Shown here piece by piece: positions 1 to 30,440 of a stretch of 33,625 bases of DNA. Source of the DNA: Patescibacteria group bacterium UBA2193 (lineage in GTDB: Bacteria; Patescibacteriota; Minisyncoccia; Moranbacterales; DUUL01). The translations under genes and the position numbers were made by a program. Below the pieces are notes generated by a model that was given only the letters and a program-made list of their open reading frames with translations, searched no databases and was not told where the DNA came from. The DNA is taken from contig DCVH01000021.1 in the NCBI GenBank assembly GCA_002327335.1, positions 1 to 33,625 of the forward strand. The letters run 5' to 3'. How positions within the stretch are numbered: the stretch's first letter is position 1; each line of letters starts with the position of its first letter.

Positions 1-37
1 ACAATAATCTTATACCAATGTCCTCGGACTTCCACTA

Positions 38-61
38 GATTCCCTTCTTCAAGGGAATGAC
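38..61. repeat. Degenerate copy of GC-rich palindromic element (family P1)
   Basis: gattcccttcttcaagggaatgac keeps the GGATTCC / GGAATGAC arms seen at 419-465 and 15417-15441, but the GC core has decayed. Confidence 0.45.
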
Positions 62-90
62 ATAACACATTTTCTTACTTTATCCCGATT

Positions 91-115
91 GTCATCCCCG
101 CGAAGGCGGGGATCC
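91..115. repeat. P1 palindromic element, reverse orientation
   Basis: gtcatccccgcgaaggcggggatcc forms the hairpin ccccgc/gcgggg. It encodes the last residues (SGSPPSRG) and the stop of the GIY-YIG ORF. Confidence 0.8.
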
Positions 116-409
116 AGAAATCAGGTTTATGTATAGATCTTCCCAACCAGGATTAAATTCCTCTATTATTCTCAATTTCCATTTTCTGTTCCACTTTTTC
201 AATTGCTTTTCTCTGTAGATTGCTGCATTGATATCCCCTCCTTCTTCATACCATACTAAATTATTAATTTTATATTTTTTCGTGAATCCTTCTATTTCTC
301 CAGATTTATGTTCATAGACCCTTCTTAATAAATCATTCGTTACTCCAACATATAAAGTTCCATTCCTTTTGCTTGCTAAAATATATACAAAATAGTTTTT
401 GCTGTTCAT
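92..409 (-). CDS. GIY-YIG nuclease family protein (UPF0213/YhbQ-like)
   Basis: N-terminal YFVYILASKRNGTLYVGVTNDLLRRVYEH matches the GIY..YIG..R..EH pattern. Size is about 100 aa. The C-terminal tail is repeat-encoded. Confidence 0.85.
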   Translation of the reverse strand: MNSKNYFVYILASKRNGTLYVGVTNDLLRRVYEHKSGEIEGFTKKYKINNLVWYEEGGDINAAIYREKQLKKWNRKWKLRIIEEFNPGWEDLYINLISGSPPSRG

Positions 410-418
410 TGAAAAACT

Positions 419-465
419 GGATTCCCGCCGGAGTTTATGCTCGCGAAGACGGGTGCGGGAATGAC
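419..465. repeat. P1 palindromic element with expanded loop
   Basis: ggattcccgcc..gggtgcgggaatgac lies immediately upstream of the GIY-YIG start, in inverse orientation to the copy at 91-115. Confidence 0.8.
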
Positions 466-476
466 AAATTATAATA

Positions 477-2338: not shown

Positions 2339-4192
2339 ATGAAAAATCAAGAATCCCCCAAAATCAAATTAAATCCTTTCGAAATAGTCTCATTTTTCTG
2401 GATATCATTTGCCATCCTCTCTCTTGCAACTGCCCTGTTTGGATTTTTTGATAAATGGAGCCTCTTGGCAATTTTGGCGATTCTCATCATTTCATTAATT
2501 TTTTTAATAAAAGAAAAAGTTTTTGTTTTTGAAAAATTTGATAAATTTTCCACGGCGATTTTCGCTTCCACCATTATTATTGGAATTTTCCTATCATTCT
2601 ATACAACACCGACTATTTTTGGTGGCAGAGATGAAGGATCCTATTCTTCATCAGCAATTCTCATCTCTCAAAAAAAAGGACTGACCTATAAAAACAAACT
2701 CGTTGATGAATTTTTCAAAATCTATGGCCCAGGGAAAGCGCTCAACTTTCCAGGATTCTATTATACCGAAGACGGAGCACTCAAGAGCCAATTTCTCCCT
2801 GGCTATCCCTCTTGGATTGCAATCTTCTATGAAATCGGCGGACTGAAAGGAATTCAATTTGCCAATCTTCTCCCTTTCGTTACTTTTCTCTTTTCCTTTT
2901 TTCTCATTATCAGACTGCTTCTTCAAAAAGCCGGCACCCCGGAAAAATCCATCAAAAAAGCCCAATTTATTTCTTTCGCAATTCTAGCCACCTCTTTCCC
3001 CTTGTTGGTTTTCTATAAATTCACTCTAAGCGAAATCTATTTTGCCGCTCTTTGTTGGTTTGCCCTCTATTTGATCCTGAAATATCTTGAAAACAAGTCT
3101 CTTCAAAATTACTTCATGATTTTCGCCCCACTGATATTAATAGTCTTCATTCGGATTGAAGCGGTTGCAATTATTTTCTTTTTTATTCTCATAATGATTT
3201 TGAAGGACGCCAACCATCTTCAGAAACCGCACTACCAGCTTCCTTTTATAATAACAGGGCTGTCATTCATCGCCGCGATATATTTTGAACCAAATTTTTT
3301 CATCGACTCTTTGAAAAACATCGTTCCTTTCGACATCAATCAAAACGGCACCATTGGAGAAGGCAATTCTGTCAGCAAAACATTCCTTTCGGACGACTGG
3401 AAAGGTTTCTACCTTCCAAAAATATTCTTCATATACAACCTGGTCGCATTATTTGCAATGGCGGTAATCGTGGTGATAAAATCAATGTTGAAATTCAGCC
3501 TTTCTGCAACCGATCGAGTCAAAAAAGACATTAGCAAAATCAATTCCTATATGCTGATTCCTTTTGTTTTTTTCTTCCCAACTTTTCTGTATTTTTTTGA
3601 TGCCAACATCTCGCTTGACCACCCTTGGCTTTTGAGAAGATTTGTTTTTTCCATTATTCCAATTCTAGTTCTTTATTCTGGAATATTCCTCGTCAGAATT
3701 CCTGCCGAGAAAAAATTACTTGCAAATCTGATTACTATTGCAATCATCGCAGTAAACTTTTCGCTCTTTATTCCGGAAATTACAAAGATAAATGAAAACT
3801 TTTTCACTTCTTCTCAAAACAAAACTCTTCTACCTCAAACAGAAAAAATTGCAAAAAACTTTGCTCCAAATGATTTGGTTTTAATTTCACAACAATCTTC
3901 CGGCTCAGGCTGGTCACTCATTTCAGAGCCAATGCGCAATCTCATGAATCTCAATGCCGTCTATTTCTTTAATCCCAAAGACTTGGAAAAAATAAACTTA
4001 GAAAATTTTAACAATGTCTATCTAATTGCTTCGAAGGAAGAAGCTGAACTCTATAGCACTCTCAATTTTGAAGGTGTGCCACAGAAATACAAAATCACCA
4101 ACAACATCATCAATCCTTCAAAAAATGCTGAGGAAAAACCACAATTTTCCAAATCTGAAACAATTGGAGAAATATATAAAATACAAAAATAA
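2339..4192 (+). CDS. Polytopic membrane protein, GT-C-type glycosyltransferase-like (ArnT/PMT_2-like)
   Basis: 617 aa with many hydrophobic spans. An RDEG acidic motif follows the early TM helices, and there is a soluble C-terminal domain. Family assignment rests on architecture only. Confidence 0.5.
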   Translation: MKNQESPKIKLNPFEIVSFFWISFAILSLATALFGFFDKWSLLAILAILIISLIFLIKEKVFVFEKFDKFSTAIFASTIIIGIFLSFYTTPTIFGGRDEGSYSSSAILISQKKGLTYKNKLVDEFFKIYGPGKALNFPGFYYTEDGALKSQFLPGYPSWIAIFYEIGGLKGIQFANLLPFVTFLFSFFLIIRLLLQKAGTPEKSIKKAQFISFAILATSFPLLVFYKFTLSEIYFAALCWFALYLILKYLENKSLQNYFMIFAPLILIVFIRIEAVAIIFFFILIMILKDANHLQKPHYQLPFIITGLSFIAAIYFEPNFFIDSLKNIVPFDINQNGTIGEGNSVSKTFLSDDWKGFYLPKIFFIYNLVALFAMAVIVVIKSMLKFSLSATDRVKKDISKINSYMLIPFVFFFPTFLYFFDANISLDHPWLLRRFVFSIIPILVLYSGIFLVRIPAEKKLLANLITIAIIAVNFSLFIPEITKINENFFTSSQNKTLLPQTEKIAKNFAPNDLVLISQQSSGSGWSLISEPMRNLMNLNAVYFFNPKDLEKINLENFNNVYLIASKEEAELYSTLNFEGVPQKYKITNNIINPSKNAEEKPQFSKSETIGEIYKIQK

Positions 4193-12029: not shown

Positions 12030-12304
12030 AGTACAATCCAGTAATTGATTTGGCTACCAATCAAATTTTTTCGAAAGAAAAATCGGCAAACGCCGACTAA
12101 ACCGGAAACAAATTGAAAGTGCCTGGTCCTTCTCCTTGTCATTCCCGCGACCGCGTGTCGCCTTAGCTTTAGCGGTGGCACAAGGCGGGAATCCATTCAA
12201 AGAAGAACCAGGAAATTGAGTGGAACCACGAGCAATGAAAACTCGTCTCAATGTTTGTCGCTTTTTAAAAACGCGACCAGACAAATTTTGAGACGAGTTT
12301 TTTT
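12030..12304 (+). promoter_or_regulatory. T-box riboswitch leader (Thr)
   Basis: - T-box motif aaattgagtggaaccacg lies at 12213-12230.
- Antiterminator: gag / 7-nt bulge tggaacc / acgag, loop, ctcgt / ctc (12218-12249).
- Competing terminator: aaaactcgtctcaa (12238-12251) pairs with ttgagacgagtttt (12288-12301), followed by a U-run.
- Thr codons ACC (12101) and ACA (12108) lie in the upstream stem region. Confidence 0.8.
12138..12194. repeat. P1 palindromic element with long loop, inside the T-box leader
   Basis: gtcattcccgcga..ggcgggaatcc sits at the tip of the hairpin cctggtccttct (12122-12133) / agaagaaccagg (12201-12212). Confidence 0.75.
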
Positions 12305-12330: not shown

Positions 12331-14139
12331 ATGAAAGACCAAGAAAAAAAACAAGAAAAACAAGAAATTCTTCGACACAGCACTGCACATATCCTTGCAG
12401 GAGCTGTTCTGGAAATGTTTCCGGAAGCCAAATTCGGAATGGGGCCAGCCACCGAAGAAGGATTTTTCTATGATTTCGAACTGCCGAGAACTCTTATACC
12501 GGAAGATTTAGAAATATTGGAAGAAAAAGTCAAAAGCCTGATTAAAGCTAATTTTCCTTTTGAGAAAAAACAAATTTCCATCAAAGAAGCAATTGAGCAT
12601 TTTGAAAAAGCCCAGCAAAATTACAAAGTGGAAATTTTGAAAGACCTTGAGGATCAAGGAGAAAAAGAAGTGATGGTCTATAAAACCGGAAATTTTGTCG
12701 ATCTTTGCAAGGGACCACACCTTGAATCGACCGGGGAAATCAACGCCCAAGGACTGAAACTCACCAAAGTTTCTGGTGCCTATTGGAAAGGCGATGAAAA
12801 TCGAGAAATGCTCCAAAGAATTTCCGGGGTTGTTTTCACTGACAGAAAAGAATTAAAAAAATATCTTCTTCAAATTGAAGAAGCCAAAAAACGCGACCAT
12901 CGAAAACTTGGAAAAGAGCTTGATTTGTTTTGTTTTTCCGATCTCGTCGGCCCAGGACTTCCTCTTTTTTCTCCTAAAGGAGCAACGATCAAAAGAGTCC
13001 TTCAAAGATGGATTGAGGATGAAGAAACAAGAAGAGGTTACCAACCAACCGCGACGCCTGACATTGCTCGCGTTGCTCTCTATGAAAAATCGGGACATTG
13101 GCAACACTATCAGGATGACATGTACCCAGCCATGGAAATATATGATGATCGATACGTTCTACGTCCAATGACTTGTCCACATCAGTTCATGATCTACAAT
13201 TCCCAACCAAGATCATACCGTGATCTCCCGATAAGATATTCGGAAATATCAAGACTCTATCGTCGTGAAAAATCAGGAGAACTTTTTGGTCTCATGCGTC
13301 ATGCTGGAGGATGGAATTTTGCCGATGCTCATATTTTGTGTGCCCCTGATCAAGTTGAAAAAGAATTTGAAAATGTTGTTGATTTTGTCCAATACATTAT
13401 GAAAACTCTGGGAGTTACTGAATACTGGTATCGATTTTCAAAGTGGGACCAGAATGATAAAAATGACAAATATGTTGATGACCCAGAATCATGGGAGTCG
13501 TCACAAAACTCAATGAAAAAAATTCTTGATAAATTAAAGCTTGATTATGTTGAAGCGGAAGGAGAAGCAGCTTTTTATGGACCAAAACTCGATATTCAAC
13601 TTCAAAATGTCAATGGAAAAGATGAAACTGCTTTCACGATTCAAATTGATTTTGCTTTACCGGAAAAATTCGATATGACATATATCGATAATGATGGAGA
13701 AAAGAAAAAACCAATTGCAATTCATCACGGATCAATTGGTTGTCTCGAAAGAACTTTTGCTTTTTTAATTGAAAAATATGCCGGCGCTTTCCCGGTCTGG
13801 CTCTCCCCTGTTCAAGTTTCAATTCTGCCAGTCTCCGAAAAATTCAACGATTACGCTCAAAAAGTTTCCGAAAAACTTCGAGAATCCAATATGAGAGTTG
13901 AAATTGTTAATTCCGATGATTCTCTTGGCAAGAAAATTGCCGAAACCACCAAACAAAAAGTTCCATACATTCTCGTAGTCGGAGAAAAAGAAAGCGAAAA
14001 CGACACAGTGGCTGTTCGTGAAAGGAGTGATGGGAACAAACCCGCCGACGCCAAGGCTATGGCGGGCAAGCAAGACATAATGGGAATTGATGAATTTCTG
14101 AAGAAAATTTCAGAAGAAATTGAGACTAAAAAGTTGTAG
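12331..14139 (+). CDS. thrS: Threonine--tRNA ligase (no N-terminal TGS domain)
   Basis: 602 aa. It starts at the editing-domain HSTAH motif and has CKGPH and class II core motifs (FRDLPIRY-like YRDLPIRYSE, RREKSGEL, GSIGCLERT). An anticodon-binding domain is present. Confidence 0.95.
   Translation: MKDQEKKQEKQEILRHSTAHILAGAVLEMFPEAKFGMGPATEEGFFYDFELPRTLIPEDLEILEEKVKSLIKANFPFEKKQISIKEAIEHFEKAQQNYKVEILKDLEDQGEKEVMVYKTGNFVDLCKGPHLESTGEINAQGLKLTKVSGAYWKGDENREMLQRISGVVFTDRKELKKYLLQIEEAKKRDHRKLGKELDLFCFSDLVGPGLPLFSPKGATIKRVLQRWIEDEETRRGYQPTATPDIARVALYEKSGHWQHYQDDMYPAMEIYDDRYVLRPMTCPHQFMIYNSQPRSYRDLPIRYSEISRLYRREKSGELFGLMRHAGGWNFADAHILCAPDQVEKEFENVVDFVQYIMKTLGVTEYWYRFSKWDQNDKNDKYVDDPESWESSQNSMKKILDKLKLDYVEAEGEAAFYGPKLDIQLQNVNGKDETAFTIQIDFALPEKFDMTYIDNDGEKKKPIAIHHGSIGCLERTFAFLIEKYAGAFPVWLSPVQVSILPVSEKFNDYAQKVSEKLRESNMRVEIVNSDDSLGKKIAETTKQKVPYILVVGEKESENDTVAVRERSDGNKPADAKAMAGKQDIMGIDEFLKKISEEIETKKL
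14038..14070. repeat. GC-rich hairpin insert within thrS (P1-like core)
   Basis: cccgcc-14 nt-ggcggg (14041-14066) forms a GC island in AT-rich coding sequence. It encodes KPADAKAMAGKQ in the C-terminal domain. Confidence 0.4.
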
Positions 14140-14776: not shown

Positions 14777-15916
14777 ATGAAATATTTTATCAAAACATTT
14801 GGTTGCCAGATGAATGAAAGTGACTCCGAACGACTCGCTACGTTTTTTGAGTCCCAGGGATTCGAAAATGCAGAAGAAATTAATATGGCTGATGTTGTGA
14901 TATTCAACACTTGTGGTGTTCGGCAAACCGCCGAAGATCGAGTCTATGGTCAAGTCCATAATCTTCGAAAAAAATCCCCAGCAGTAAAAATCATTATCAC
15001 TGGCTGTGTTGCCCATCGCAAAGATGTTCAAAGAAGATTAAAAGATAAGGTTGATTTATTCACCAGTATTAAAAATATTTCAAAAATTAAAAATTTAGAT
15101 TTATTTAAAAATCAAGAATTAAAAATTAAAAATTCTACTAAAGAATATCTCGACATAATCCCAAAATACGCCAAAAAAAATTCCGCTTTCCTTCCAATTA
15201 TGACCGGTTGCAATAATTTTTGCTCCTATTGCGTGGTTCCCTATGCTCGCGGAAGAGAAAAATCACGACCAATTGAAGATATTTTTAAAGAAATTAAAAA
15301 GCTTTCTGAAAATGGGTGCAAAGAAATCACTTTACTTGGACAGAATGTTAACTCTTATTTATGTAAAGTAGAAAATACAACTAAAAATTTAAAACATACC
15401 AAGCAATCAAACGACTGGATTCCCGCCTTCGCGGGAATGACAAAGATTGTCTTTCCAACTCTGCTTGATGCATTAGCAAAAACTTATCCCAAGATAGATT
15501 GGCGCTTTTTGACTTCTCATCCAAAAGATTTTTCGGAAGAATTGATGAATGTGGTCGCGGAAAATGAAAATATTTCCAAAGAAATTCATCTGCCATTTCA
15601 GTCTGGCAGTAATAAGATTCTGAAGGCCATGAATCGCCCCTACACCCAAAAACATTATTTTAATCTTATCGAAAAAGCTCAAAAAATAATTCCGAAAGTC
15701 ACCTTCACAACCGATGTAATTGTTGGATTCCCAGGAGAAACTGAAAAAGATTTTCAAGAAACCGTGAAGGTTTTTGAAAAAGTGAAATATACTGAAGCCT
15801 ATATTAACAAATATTCTCCTCGCCCCGAAACCGTCGCCGAAAAACTTGGCGACCCCATTTCGTGGGACGAGAAAAAAAGACGAGAAAAATTTTTAAGAAA
15901 CTTGATTAAAAAATAA
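14777..15916 (+). CDS. miaB: MiaB-family radical-SAM methylthiotransferase lacking a TRAM domain
   Basis: N-terminal MTTase motif FGCQMNESDSE..NTCGVR, radical-SAM CNNFCSYCVVPYARG and VGFPGETE are present. The ORF ends right after the radical-SAM domain. Confidence 0.85.
   Translation: MKYFIKTFGCQMNESDSERLATFFESQGFENAEEINMADVVIFNTCGVRQTAEDRVYGQVHNLRKKSPAVKIIITGCVAHRKDVQRRLKDKVDLFTSIKNISKIKNLDLFKNQELKIKNSTKEYLDIIPKYAKKNSAFLPIMTGCNNFCSYCVVPYARGREKSRPIEDIFKEIKKLSENGCKEITLLGQNVNSYLCKVENTTKNLKHTKQSNDWIPAFAGMTKIVFPTLLDALAKTYPKIDWRFLTSHPKDFSEELMNVVAENENISKEIHLPFQSGSNKILKAMNRPYTQKHYFNLIEKAQKIIPKVTFTTDVIVGFPGETEKDFQETVKVFEKVKYTEAYINKYSPRPETVAEKLGDPISWDEKKRREKFLRNLIKK
15417..15441. repeat. P1 palindromic element inserted in frame in miaB
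   Basis: ggattcccgccttcgcgggaatgac is translated as WIPAFAGMT inside a variable loop. Confidence 0.85.
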
Positions 15917-22675: not shown

Positions 22676-22806
22676 ACGTAAAATTTTTAATTTTTGAATT
22701 TTTAATTTTATAAATAAATAAAAATTTTTAATTTTCTGATTTTAAAAATTTAGATTTAAATAATTATCTAAAAATTACAAAATTAAACATTAAAAATTAT
22801 CGCTTT
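22676..22806. repeat. AT-rich intergenic block (AT1)
   Basis: 22682-22718 matches 30318-30354 at 36 of 37 nt. 22742-22758 is identical to 15087-15103 inside miaB. Confidence 0.55.
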
Positions 22807-27958: not shown

Positions 27959-28040
27959 CTAGGCGGAAAGTATATCTTTTTATCCAAACAAGTCGCTTTG
28001 CTTTGTCTAAGGTGGATAAAAAAATATACTTTCCGCCTAG
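27959..28040. repeat. 82-bp near-perfect palindrome (27-bp arms, 28-nt spacer)
   Basis: ctaggcggaaagtatatctttttatcc (27959-27985) pairs with ggataaaaaaatatactttccgcctag (28014-28040), matching at 26 of 27 positions. Confidence 0.8.
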
Positions 28041-30295: not shown

Positions 30296-30440
30296 CACAA
30301 GTTTAATAATCTTGAATAATTTTTAATTTTTGAATTCTTAATTTTATAAATAAACCTAACTTTTTAATGTTTAAAAATTGAAACATTGGAAATTATTTAA
30401 AAAATTATAAAATTAAAAATTATAAAATTTTAACTTACGC
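30296..30440. repeat. AT-rich intergenic block (AT1)
   Basis: Contains the 37-mer aatttttaatttttgaattcttaattttataaataaa (30318-30354). The distal arm aaaattataaaattaaaaattataaaat is its imperfect inverse. Confidence 0.55.

What the first reader, a model, noticed from the sequence alone, without database searches (positions are those of the whole stretch)
38..465. GIY-YIG nuclease gene bracketed by inverted copies of a dispersed GC-rich palindromic element
- **Bracketing.** The roughly 100-aa GIY-YIG gene has P1 elements (GGATTCCCGC-loop-GCGGGAATGAC) on both sides in opposite orientation, at 91-115 and 419-465. A decayed third copy lies at 38-61.
- **Overlap.** The downstream copy supplies the last eight codons and the stop of the gene.
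- **Dispersal.** The same element recurs at 12138-12194 and 15417-15441, with a degenerate core at 14041-14066.
- **Interpretation.** A nuclease flanked by the hairpin repeats that are scattered through the genome resembles REP elements with their RAYT transposase. The enzyme here would be a GIY-YIG, which would be a different mobilisation chemistry.
Basis: partly seen in the sequence, partly recalled or inferred. Interest (0 to 1): 0.65.

Follow-up and report, generated by a model that had tools for sequence, protein, structure and literature searches.

The report
Ssn nuclease gene with hairpin repeats
This is a small DNA-cutting enzyme gene flanked by the hairpin repeats it recognises, a pairing first published in 2025 for Neisseria (the Ssn nuclease and its NTS/SRM repeats), so it is a new example of a known system, not a new kind.

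Summary
A 105-aa single-domain GIY-YIG gene (92-409, minus strand) is bracketed by inverted copies of an 8-bp-stem hairpin. The downstream copy supplies its last codons and its stop. More copies lie at 35-62, 12137-12195 and 15415-15442, with a relic at 14041-14066.

The system is already described. The hairpins match the Neisseria NTS / "Ssn-related motif" (Chenal et al. 2025, PMC11893778), one copy at 27 of 28 positions. The protein is 59% identical (E 1e-40) to the 94-aa N. gonorrhoeae SsnA orthologue, with the three catalytic residues conserved. In 80 homologous loci from many phyla, 56 show the same layout, with the GTCAT ends pointing outward.

Characterised Ssn enzymes bind the hairpin in single-stranded DNA and cut a few nucleotides 5' of GTCAT. 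That is inferred here, not shown.

New support for mobility: a sister strain (gatB about 94% identical) has gatB directly next to alaS with no cassette. Solo hairpins also sit in frame inside miaB and inside a T-box-like leader.

Verdict: new member of a known kind, modest interest.

The parts
92..409 (-). ssn gene. Single-domain GIY-YIG protein of 105 aa in the Ssn family, predicted to be a site-specific ssDNA endonuclease. The last 8 codons and the TGA stop lie inside the downstream hairpin.
   Evidence: ORF. Pfam PF01541 at E 6.2e-17. 59% identity over 90 aa with no gaps, E 1e-40, to the N. gonorrhoeae 94-aa SsnA orthologue. Y9, Y20 and E67 are invariant in 26 homologues and align with Y6, Y17 and E64 of SsnA.
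418..466 (-). Upstream SRM hairpin, forward on the gene's coding strand, with the GTCAT end pointing away from the gene. It is a long-loop variant (26-nt loop). It lies 11 nt after the gatB stop and 8 nt before the ssn ATG.
   Evidence: Sequence. Arms-only pattern hit. Fold -8.3 kcal/mol, z -1.6, not more stable than shuffles. A near-identical long-loop copy lies 5.4 kb beyond the window edge at L001:15746-15790.
90..117 (+). Downstream SRM hairpin, inverted relative to the upstream copy, with the GTCAT end pointing away from the gene. It overlaps the ssn 3' end and stop. The stem carries a compensatory T-A to C-G change relative to the NTS consensus.
   Evidence: Matches the published SRM degenerate motif. 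Fold -9.7 kcal/mol, z -3.7.
35..62 (-). Third SRM copy, TGTCATTCCCTTGAAGAAGGGAATCTAG. It is head-to-head with the 90-117 copy, with 27 nt (63-89) between the two 28-nt units. Both flanking motifs are intact, and two stem pairs are changed compensatorily.
   Evidence: Sequence. Fold -6.3 kcal/mol, z -3.2. Head-to-head dimers are the usual arrangement of CGTC-tagged REPs (PMC3733652).
12137..12195 (+). Solo SRM in the apical loop of a stem in a T-box-like leader upstream of thrS. It carries a 32-nt secondary insertion (12150-12181) in its own loop.
   Evidence: Arms-only pattern hit. T-box RF00230 at 32.3 bits, E 1.6e-5, below the gathering score, with 77 nt where the model has a 5-nt loop. A related strain has the short canonical form, seen as a joint 12149 to 12182 that skips 32 nt.
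15415..15442 (-). Solo SRM, identical to the Neisseria NTS consensus at 27 of 28 positions. It is inserted in frame in miaB and encodes WIPAFAGMT in a variable loop.
   Evidence: SRM motif hit. It lies in an extra loop segment relative to B. uniformis MiaB, PDB 7mjz. Frame checked.
14041..14066 (.). Possible relic of an SRM core (CCCGCC..GGCGGG hairpin, no flanking motifs) inside the 3' end of thrS.
   Evidence: One of only five CCCGC..GCGGG cores in the window, against 0.085 expected. Alignments to solved ThrRS structures stop at residue 567, just before it. Its fold is not better than shuffles, z -1.4.

Best explanation
The locus is an Ssn-family nuclease cassette. A small single-domain GIY-YIG gene is flanked by inverted copies of its cognate hairpin, the Ssn-related motif (SRM, also NTS or CGTC-tagged REP).

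**Inferred activity.** Four homologues have been characterised biochemically. By homology to them, the protein should:
- bind the hairpin only when the DNA is single-stranded;
- read its orientation from the GTCAT flank and from the C that follows the palindrome;
- cut with Mg2+ a few nucleotides 5' of GTCAT.

With the GTCAT ends pointing outward, the predicted cuts fall just outside each end of the cassette, on opposite strands.

**What the sequence data show.** The cassette SRM-ssn-SRM, plus one more SRM, is a discrete insertion between gatB and alaS of a small AT-rich uncultivated bacterium. It is missing from a sister strain. Units of the same layout sit in unrelated genomic contexts in many phyla. 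Solo hairpins are scattered elsewhere in the genome, including in frame in miaB and inside a T-box-like leader.

**What is inferred.**
- The biochemical activity of this particular protein.
- Its cellular role. The likeliest role is cleavage of SRM-marked ssDNA, for example incoming transforming DNA, as in Neisseria.
- Whether it also drives spread of the hairpins.
For: **Hairpins.**
- They match the published SRM motif and are strongly enriched.
- One copy equals the Neisseria NTS consensus at 27 of 28 positions.

**Protein.**
- 59% identity, no gaps, E 1e-40 to the gonococcal 94-aa SsnA orthologue.
- Y9, Y20 and E67 correspond to the residues Y6, Y17 and E64, whose mutation abolished cleavage in the paper.

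**Homologous loci.**
- In 80 named-genome loci, 52 have a strict SRM within 150 nt, at 2.66 per kb against 0.044 per kb further out.
- With a sequence-agnostic hairpin test, 56 of 80 have the window's orientation (upstream forward, downstream reverse) and 76 of 80 have at least one hairpin.
- Of the between-locus DNA alignments that reach the upstream SRM, 117 of 144 end within 1 nt of its outer edge. For the downstream SRM the figure is 92 of 119.

**Insertion polymorphism.**
- A sister strain with about 94% nucleotide identity in gatB (same 90% protein cluster) has gatB, then 166 nt, then alaS. It has no ssn and no SRM anywhere in 11.6 kb.
- The window strain has 544 nt between the same genes.
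- Two more distant relatives also have gatB adjacent to alaS.

**Published properties consistent with the variants seen here.**
- Long loops are tolerated by SsnA in vitro.
- A dprA gene, which handles incoming ssDNA in transformation, lies 4 kb away.
Against: - There is no biochemistry for this protein or for any homologue from this lineage.
- The genome seems to hold few copies. Only about 2 contigs carry the short form, and each long-loop type has roughly 5 copies in a 0.93-Mb data set. A genome-wide effect on recombination would therefore be small.
- The sister strain keeps an SRM in the thrS leader, yet shows no ssn of 80% or higher nucleotide identity at its own read depth. Hairpins can therefore persist without a close copy of the nuclease.
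- In N. gonorrhoeae the SRMs nearest to ssnA point the opposite way, with GTCAT inward. The cassette geometry is therefore not universal.
- The CDD family assignment (cd10448) could not be run.
Confidence: 0.85

Rival explanations
1. The cassette is an autonomous mobile element and Ssn is the enzyme that mobilises both the cassette and the solo hairpins, in the way RAYT is thought to mobilise REPs but with hydrolytic GIY-YIG chemistry. It is compatible with the best explanation and adds a claim about function.
For: - Inverted hairpins form the ends of a compact unit, and homology stops at their outer edges.
- The cassette is present in one closely related strain and absent from the other.
- A second SRM-ssn-SRM cassette sits right after gatB in a lineage with 60% GatB identity.
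- Proteins 60-75% identical occur across many phyla, with more than one copy in some genomes.
- Solo copies look like insertions into a CDS and into an RNA leader.
- CGTC-tagged REPs have no other known dedicated enzyme (PMC3733652).
- The authors of the Ssn paper raise the same hypothesis.
Against: - No transposition or homing has been shown for any Ssn enzyme.
- By established knowledge, GIY-YIG enzymes hydrolyse DNA and form no covalent intermediate. A rejoining step would have to come from host repair.
- I see no target-site duplication at the cassette or at the miaB copy (sequence).
- The empty site in the sister strain holds unrelated sequence rather than a clean excision or a solo SRM.
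- The two hairpins are cleavable on opposite strands, unlike the IS200/IS605 ends, which lie on the same strand.
Confidence: 0.3
2. The gene is a domesticated host function only. Ssn and the hairpins serve the host by restricting SRM-marked incoming ssDNA during natural transformation, as in N. meningitidis, and the cassette is not mobile today.
For: - This is the only in vivo role demonstrated for an Ssn enzyme: transformation with NTS-bearing DNA rose 5-fold in the knockout.
- dprA is encoded nearby.
Against: - The cassette is present in one strain and absent from the other, at about 94% nucleotide identity in gatB.
- There appear to be few hairpins in this genome.
- The cassette occurs in unrelated contexts across phyla.
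Confidence: 0.25
3. The gene is a classical double-strand homing endonuclease of the I-TevI type, free-standing or intron-borne, and the hairpins are unrelated terminators that lie next to it by chance.
For: The GIY-YIG domain is shared with homing endonucleases. NCBIfam gives only a weak hit to the group I intron endonuclease model (20.4 bits against a 56 cut-off).
Against: - The protein is a single 105-aa domain with no DNA-binding extension.
- There is no intron or other Rfam family in the window.
- The hairpins have no T-run.
- Flanking by the same hairpin in 56 to 76 of 80 loci excludes chance.
- Phage genomes hold only four remote hits at 35-37% identity.
Confidence: 0.03

Closest known systems
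Ssn nuclease family with NTS / Ssn-related motif repeats (SsnA of Neisseria meningitidis NMV_0044/NMB0047; Chenal et al., Nat Commun 2025, PMC11893778)
   Same: - Single-domain GIY-YIG protein of about 100 aa.
- 59% identity to the gonococcal orthologue.
- Catalytic Tyr, Tyr and Glu conserved.
- Hairpins with the same 8-bp stem (ATTCCCGC), GTCAT 5' flank and ATCCAG 3' flank.
- Hairpins on both sides of the gene and dispersed elsewhere in the genome.
   Different: - The host is an AT-rich uncultivated bacterium from hydrocarbon and wastewater metagenomes, not a proteobacterium.
- The nearest hairpins point GTCAT-outward, whereas they point inward at the gonococcal ssnA.
- There are few copies rather than hundreds.
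- Long-loop subfamilies (26-nt loop, and a 32-nt nested insert) dominate.
- One copy is in frame in an essential-type gene, whereas only 2% of NTS are intragenic in N. meningitidis.
CGTC-tagged REPs (Di Nocera et al., BMC Genomics 2013, PMC3733652), which include Neisseria dRS3 and Rickettsia RPE-4/RPE-6
   Same: - Short GC-rich stem-loops tagged (C/T)GTC at one end.
- Often arranged as head-to-head dimers, like the 35-62 and 90-117 pair.
- Sometimes inserted in frame in coding regions.
   Different: That survey found no dedicated enzyme for the class. Here, and in the Ssn paper, a GIY-YIG gene is flanked by them.
REP / RAYT systems (REPtrons; IS200/IS605-like TnpA-REP)
   Same: - A nuclease gene bracketed by inverted copies of a dispersed extragenic hairpin.
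- The hairpin is recognised as single-stranded DNA.
   Different: - RAYT is an HUH tyrosine transposase that forms a covalent intermediate, and its REPs carry a GTAG tag.
- Here the enzyme is a hydrolytic GIY-YIG, the tag is (C/T)GTC, and no transposition has been shown.
UPF0213 / YhbQ-type small GIY-YIG proteins (PDB 1ywl, 1zg2)
   Same: Small stand-alone GIY-YIG domains of about 100 aa.
   Different: Sequence similarity is only marginal (E 6e-4 and 1e-3). They form a separate subfamily that is not known to be linked to hairpin repeats.

Membership tests
Ssn nuclease family (cd10448-type) | Single-domain GIY-YIG protein of roughly 90-150 aa | tested here: met
   105 aa. Pfam GIY-YIG covers residues 5-79, with no other domain.
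Ssn nuclease family (cd10448-type) | BLASTP E < 1e-10 with at least 75% coverage to Neisseria SsnA (the paper's criterion) | tested here: met
   59% identity over 90 of 94 aa, E 1e-40, to the N. gonorrhoeae 94-aa orthologue found in record NZ_CP119140.1. The N. meningitidis sequence CAX49033.1 itself was not available.
Ssn nuclease family (cd10448-type) | Catalytic residues equivalent to Y6, Y17 and E64 of SsnA | tested here: met
   Y9, Y20 and E67 align with them and are invariant in 26 homologues.
Ssn nuclease family (cd10448-type) | SRM in both the 5' and 3' flanks within 500 bp | tested here: met
   The copy at 90-117 matches the published motif. The copy at 418-466 has both arms and both flanks, but its 26-nt loop exceeds the motif's N(0-5).
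Ssn nuclease family (cd10448-type) | Top CDD assignment is cd10448 (GIY-YIG_unchar_3) | not testable with these tools
   No CDD library is on hand. NCBIfam has no specific model for it.
Ssn nuclease family (cd10448-type) | Cleaves only ssDNA, site-specifically, just 5' of its hairpin | not testable with these tools
   This needs purified protein. It has been shown for four homologues in PMC11893778.
SRM / NTS / CGTC-tagged REP repeats | Matches HGTCWYN(0-2)YYVSBRHN(0-5)WNVSBRGN(0-2)RNCYNB and forms a hairpin | tested here: met
   Two strict matches against 0.02 expected. The three short-loop copies fold better than shuffles, z -3.2 to -4.6. Three further copies (418-466, 12137-12195, 35-62) fail the strict pattern: the first two have longer loops, and the third has changed stem pairs.
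SRM / NTS / CGTC-tagged REP repeats | Multi-copy and dispersed in the genome | tested here: met
   Five copies plus a relic in 33.6 kb. One more lies at L001:15746-15790. Further copies appear in contigs of the same organism. The total looks like tens, not hundreds.
REP / RAYT (REPtron) | The flanked gene encodes an IS200/IS605-like HUH tyrosine transposase | tested here: not met
   The gene is a GIY-YIG only.
REP / RAYT (REPtron) | Repeats carry the GTAG tag | tested here: not met
   The tag is TGTC/CGTC.
GIY-YIG homing endonucleases (I-TevI type) | A C-terminal DNA-binding domain, and residence in an intron or a phage intergenic site | tested here: not met
   No extra domain. No intron RNA in the window. 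Only four remote hits in phage genomes.
UPF0213 / YhbQ subfamily | Close sequence similarity to EF2693 or BH0048 | tested here: not met
   E 6.4e-4 and 9.8e-4 only.

The most novel reading that the evidence does not exclude
Ssn is the long-missing mobilising enzyme of CGTC-tagged REPs. On this reading the GTCAT-outward SRM-ssn-SRM cassette is an autonomous selfish element. It moves by hydrolytic cleavage of hairpins in single-stranded DNA followed by host repair, which would be a transposition or homing chemistry not yet described. It also seeds solo hairpins into essential genes and RNA leaders of reduced genomes. The pair of strains with and without the cassette found here would be a natural before-and-after case.
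Probability: 0.25. Interest if true: 0.7.

Novelty: new member of a known kind. Interest (0 to 1): 0.3.

Why it matters
The main point, a GIY-YIG nuclease tied to a dispersed hairpin, was published in 2025. This window adds three things.

- **Wider host range.** It places the system, with nearly the same hairpin sequence as in Neisseria, in a small AT-rich uncultivated bacterium.
- **A natural strain pair.** It gives two strains about 94% identical in gatB, one with the cassette and one without, plus a polymorphic 32-nt insert inside one hairpin loop. This is the kind of material needed to test whether Ssn mobilises these repeats, which is still open.
- **Natural substrate variants.** The long loops and the TT/AA stem pairs could be used to map Ssn specificity. 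That is relevant to the proposed use of these enzymes as site-specific ssDNA cutters.

Tried and rejected
**Searches that found nothing useful**
- Rfam at gathering thresholds found nothing in the window.
- NCBIfam has no model for this protein.
- PDB sequence search gave only marginal UPF0213 hits, so no Ssn structure is solved.
- Phage genomes hold only four remote GIY-YIG hits, so phages are not an evident vehicle.
- The paper's supplements are not held.
- A search for the hairpin-encoded peptides and the hairpin DNA in the literature found only the Ssn paper and one unrelated gonococcal paper.

I obtained the sister-strain contig another way.

**Analyses that did not resolve**
- Aligning the empty and filled gatB-alaS spacers gave no clean junction. 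Only the last ~45 nt before alaS and the gatB end are alignable, and a weak resemblance of the sister-strain spacer to a decayed hairpin is not convincing.
- The sister-strain assembly breaks at the miaB hairpin region, so presence or absence there could not be decided.
- I looked by eye for target-site duplications around the cassette and the miaB copy and saw none.
- I did not run a structure prediction, because Pfam and 59% identity to SsnA already settle the fold.

Full report
**What is in the sequence**

The region holds one ORF on the minus strand, 92-409, of 105 aa. It is a single GIY-YIG domain (Pfam PF01541, E 6.2e-17, residues 5-79). It lies between gatB (477-1982, minus) and alaS. 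alaS begins just beyond the left edge of the window, as contigs of the same organism show.

In gene orientation the layout is:
- the gatB stop, then 11 nt;
- TGTCATTCCCGC, a 26-nt loop, then GCGGGAATCCAG;
- 8 nt, then ATG and the ssn coding sequence;
- CTGGATCCCCGCCTTCGCGGGGATGACA, which contains the last eight codons (SGSPPSRG) and the TGA stop;
- 27 nt, then TGTCATTCCCTTGAAGAAGGGAATCTAG.

The two copies next to the gene are therefore inverted, with their GTCAT ends pointing outward. The third copy is head-to-head with the second.

Further copies lie at 12137-12195 and 15415-15442. A bare GC core lies at 14041-14066.

**Is it more than chance?** Yes.
- The core CCCGC..GCGGG occurs five times, against 0.085 expected from dinucleotide shuffles.
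- An arms-only pattern hits four times, against none in 100 shuffles.
- The half-site patterns are also enriched.
- The short copies fold as 8-bp stems with a GAAG loop, at z -3.2 to -4.6. The long-loop copies keep the same outer stem but are not more stable than shuffles (z -1.4 and -1.6).
- The copy at 35-62 is not decayed. It keeps both flanks and the hairpin through a compensatory double change.

**What it is**

A literature search led to Chenal et al. 2025 (PMC11893778).
- They define the Neisseria Transformation Sequence CGTCATTCCCGCGMAVGCGGGAATCYRG and a degenerate Ssn-related motif (SRM).
- They show that these hairpins flank homologues of a 94-aa GIY-YIG gene, ssnA, across phyla.
- They show that SsnA binds the hairpin only as ssDNA and cuts a few nucleotides upstream, in one orientation only.

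The window matches this system on both sides.
- The copies at 90-117 and 15415-15442 match the published SRM pattern, against 0.02 expected.
- The copy at 15415-15442 equals the Neisseria consensus at 27 of 28 positions.
- The other copies keep both arms and both flanks but have longer loops or changed stem pairs. The paper reports that loop identity is not essential and that extended loops are tolerated.

For the protein I needed a Neisseria sequence. A PLSDB record labelled as a plasmid, NZ_CP119140.1, is in fact a 2.17-Mb N. gonorrhoeae replicon and holds the orthologue.
- It is 94 aa, with Y6, Y17 and E64 at exactly the positions mutated in the paper.
- The window protein is 59% identical to it over 90 residues without gaps, E 1e-40.
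- Its Y9, Y20 and E67 align with those residues and are invariant in 26 homologues.

The family is very large and very conserved. More than 8000 proteins score E <= 1e-5, and many are 60-75% identical across Patescibacteria, Chloroflexi, Omnitrophica, Planctomycetes and Proteobacteria.

Several homologues carry N-terminal 'SFPRKRES' or C-terminal 'GSPPSRG' tails. These are translated hairpins, so the same overlap recurs elsewhere.

I fetched 80 loci from named genomes.
- With the strict published pattern, 52 have an SRM within 150 nt and 24 have one on both sides. The density is 2.66 per kb near the gene and 0.044 per kb further out.
- With a test that asks only for GTC followed by an 8-nt arm whose complement lies within 80 nt, 76 of 80 have a hairpin. 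Of these, 56 have the window's arrangement, upstream forward and downstream reverse.
- DNA similarity between cassettes in unrelated contexts stops at the outer edge of the hairpins. Of the alignments that reach the upstream hairpin, 117 of 144 end within 1 nt of its edge. For the downstream hairpin the figure is 92 of 119.

At the gonococcal ssnA the nearest hairpins point the other way (GTCAT inward), within an array of alternating copies. The outward geometry is therefore typical of the window's relatives but not universal.

**Is the cassette an insertion?**

Among 80 metagenome loci with related GatB:
- two (64% and 62% identity) have alaS directly after gatB, with no ssn and no hairpin;
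- one (60% identity) has its own SRM-ssn-SRM right after gatB.

The best evidence comes from a sister strain in a wastewater run. Its gatB is about 94% identical at the nucleotide level (96 differences in 1513 nt) and falls in the same 90% protein cluster.
- Its 11.6-kb contig reads dprA, a 617-aa gene, gatB, 166 nt, alaS.
- It has no ssn and no SRM-type hairpin anywhere.
- The window strain has 544 nt between gatB and alaS and four hairpins across the syntenic stretch.

The two spacers cannot be aligned apart from their ends. I therefore cannot say whether this was a gain or a loss, or where the exact junctions are.

The same sister strain does carry the hairpin in the thrS leader, in the short canonical form. 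The window's copy has an extra 32 nt in its loop.

**How it most likely works**

Shown for four homologues and inferred here:
- The protein binds the hairpin extruded in ssDNA.
- It reads orientation from the GTCAT flank and from the C after the palindrome.
- It hydrolyses the strand a few nt 5' of GTCAT.

With the outward geometry, the predicted cuts fall just outside each end of the cassette, on opposite strands.

The one demonstrated cellular role is restriction of hairpin-bearing incoming ssDNA during natural transformation. A dprA gene 4 kb away makes such a pathway plausible here, but the low hairpin count argues for a small effect.

The REP/RAYT-like reading is not excluded. It fits the discrete unit, the strain polymorphism and the insertions into genes. 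However:
- it has never been demonstrated;
- GIY-YIG chemistry gives no rejoining step;
- I see no target duplications.

The same idea is already in the paper's discussion. It also complements the 2013 observation that CGTC-tagged REPs, the class that includes dRS3 and some Rickettsia RPEs, lack a dedicated transposase and can sit in frame in genes.

**Verdict**

The locus is a new member of the Ssn/SRM kind in an uncultivated AT-rich bacterium. Its variant features are outward orientation, long-loop subfamilies, and copies inside a gene and inside an RNA leader. These are worth a note but do not make it a new kind of system. The organism was not identified. Its sources are hydrocarbon and wastewater metagenomes, and a 0.93-Mb data set with contigs identical to the window suggests a small genome.

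Noticed in passing
window 12036-12253 (and the terminator-like hairpin 12238-12301): A T-box-like leader lies upstream of thrS (RF00230, 32.3 bits, E 1.6e-5, well below the gathering score of 93). The SRM hairpin sits where the model expects a 5-nt loop of the last stem before the T-box sequence, and 77 nt are present instead. A 22-nt inverted repeat followed by a T-run comes next.
   Followed up: partly
window 12150-12181: A 32-nt module (ACCGCGTGTCGCCTTAGCTTTAGCGGTGGCAC) is inserted in the SRM loop at CGCG^AAGG. It is absent from the same hairpin in a sister strain. Loose ends of contigs from the window's own organism show the same module following ...GCTCGCGA in another hairpin copy, so it looks like a nested repeated insert. 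Collapsed contigs suggest about 5 copies of each long-loop type. Its origin is unexplained.
   Followed up: partly
window 15415-15442 within miaB (14777-15916, +): An SRM hairpin is inserted in frame and encodes WIPAFAGMT. It lies in a loop about 19 residues longer than in the solved B. uniformis MiaB.
   Followed up: partly
window 14041-14066 within thrS (12331-14139, +): A GC-rich hairpin core without SRM flanks encodes part of '...NKPADAKAMAGK...' near the C-terminus. Alignments to solved ThrRS structures end just before it. The sister strain has the same length here. It may be an old, decayed insertion.
   Followed up: partly
L113:4872-5861 (-): A MiaA gene in a related metagenome contig carries 'VIPAKAGIQKSEPGFRVTPGMT' in frame. 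That corresponds to one canonical SRM, and a second SRM-like hairpin is inferred from the peptide alone (not checked at DNA level). Of 17 strict solo-pattern hits in about 0.94 Mb of fetched loci, 10 lie in open frames of 120 codons or more. About three of the 17 look like false pattern matches, and frames in GC-rich genomes may be spurious.
   Followed up: partly
L100:2818-3195: A second SRM-ssn-SRM cassette lies immediately after gatB in a lineage whose GatB is only 60% identical, and its Ssn is 62% identical. It is either an old shared insertion or an independent one at the same kind of site.
   Followed up: no
L167 (NZ_CP119140.1 1880757-1884080): A PLSDB record labelled a Neisseria gonorrhoeae plasmid is 2.17 Mb long and is evidently the chromosome. 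It has almost no annotation. ssnA there sits in an array of at least nine NTS copies of alternating orientation.
   Followed up: partly
window 22682-22800 and 30312-30437: A second, AT-rich repeat (TAATTTTTAATTTTTGAATT.TTAATTTTATAA) occurs at two intergenic places, each within a cluster of imperfect inverted repeats.
   Followed up: no
window 27959-28040: A 28-nt inverted repeat, 96% complementary with a 26-nt spacer (CTAGGCGGAAAGTATATCTTTTTATCCA / TGGATAAAAAAATATACTTTCCGCCTAG), lies between two ORFs.
   Followed up: no
window 2339-4192 (+): A 617-aa ORF with no Pfam hit on record lies between gatB and dprA. It is conserved in position in the sister strain.
   Followed up: no
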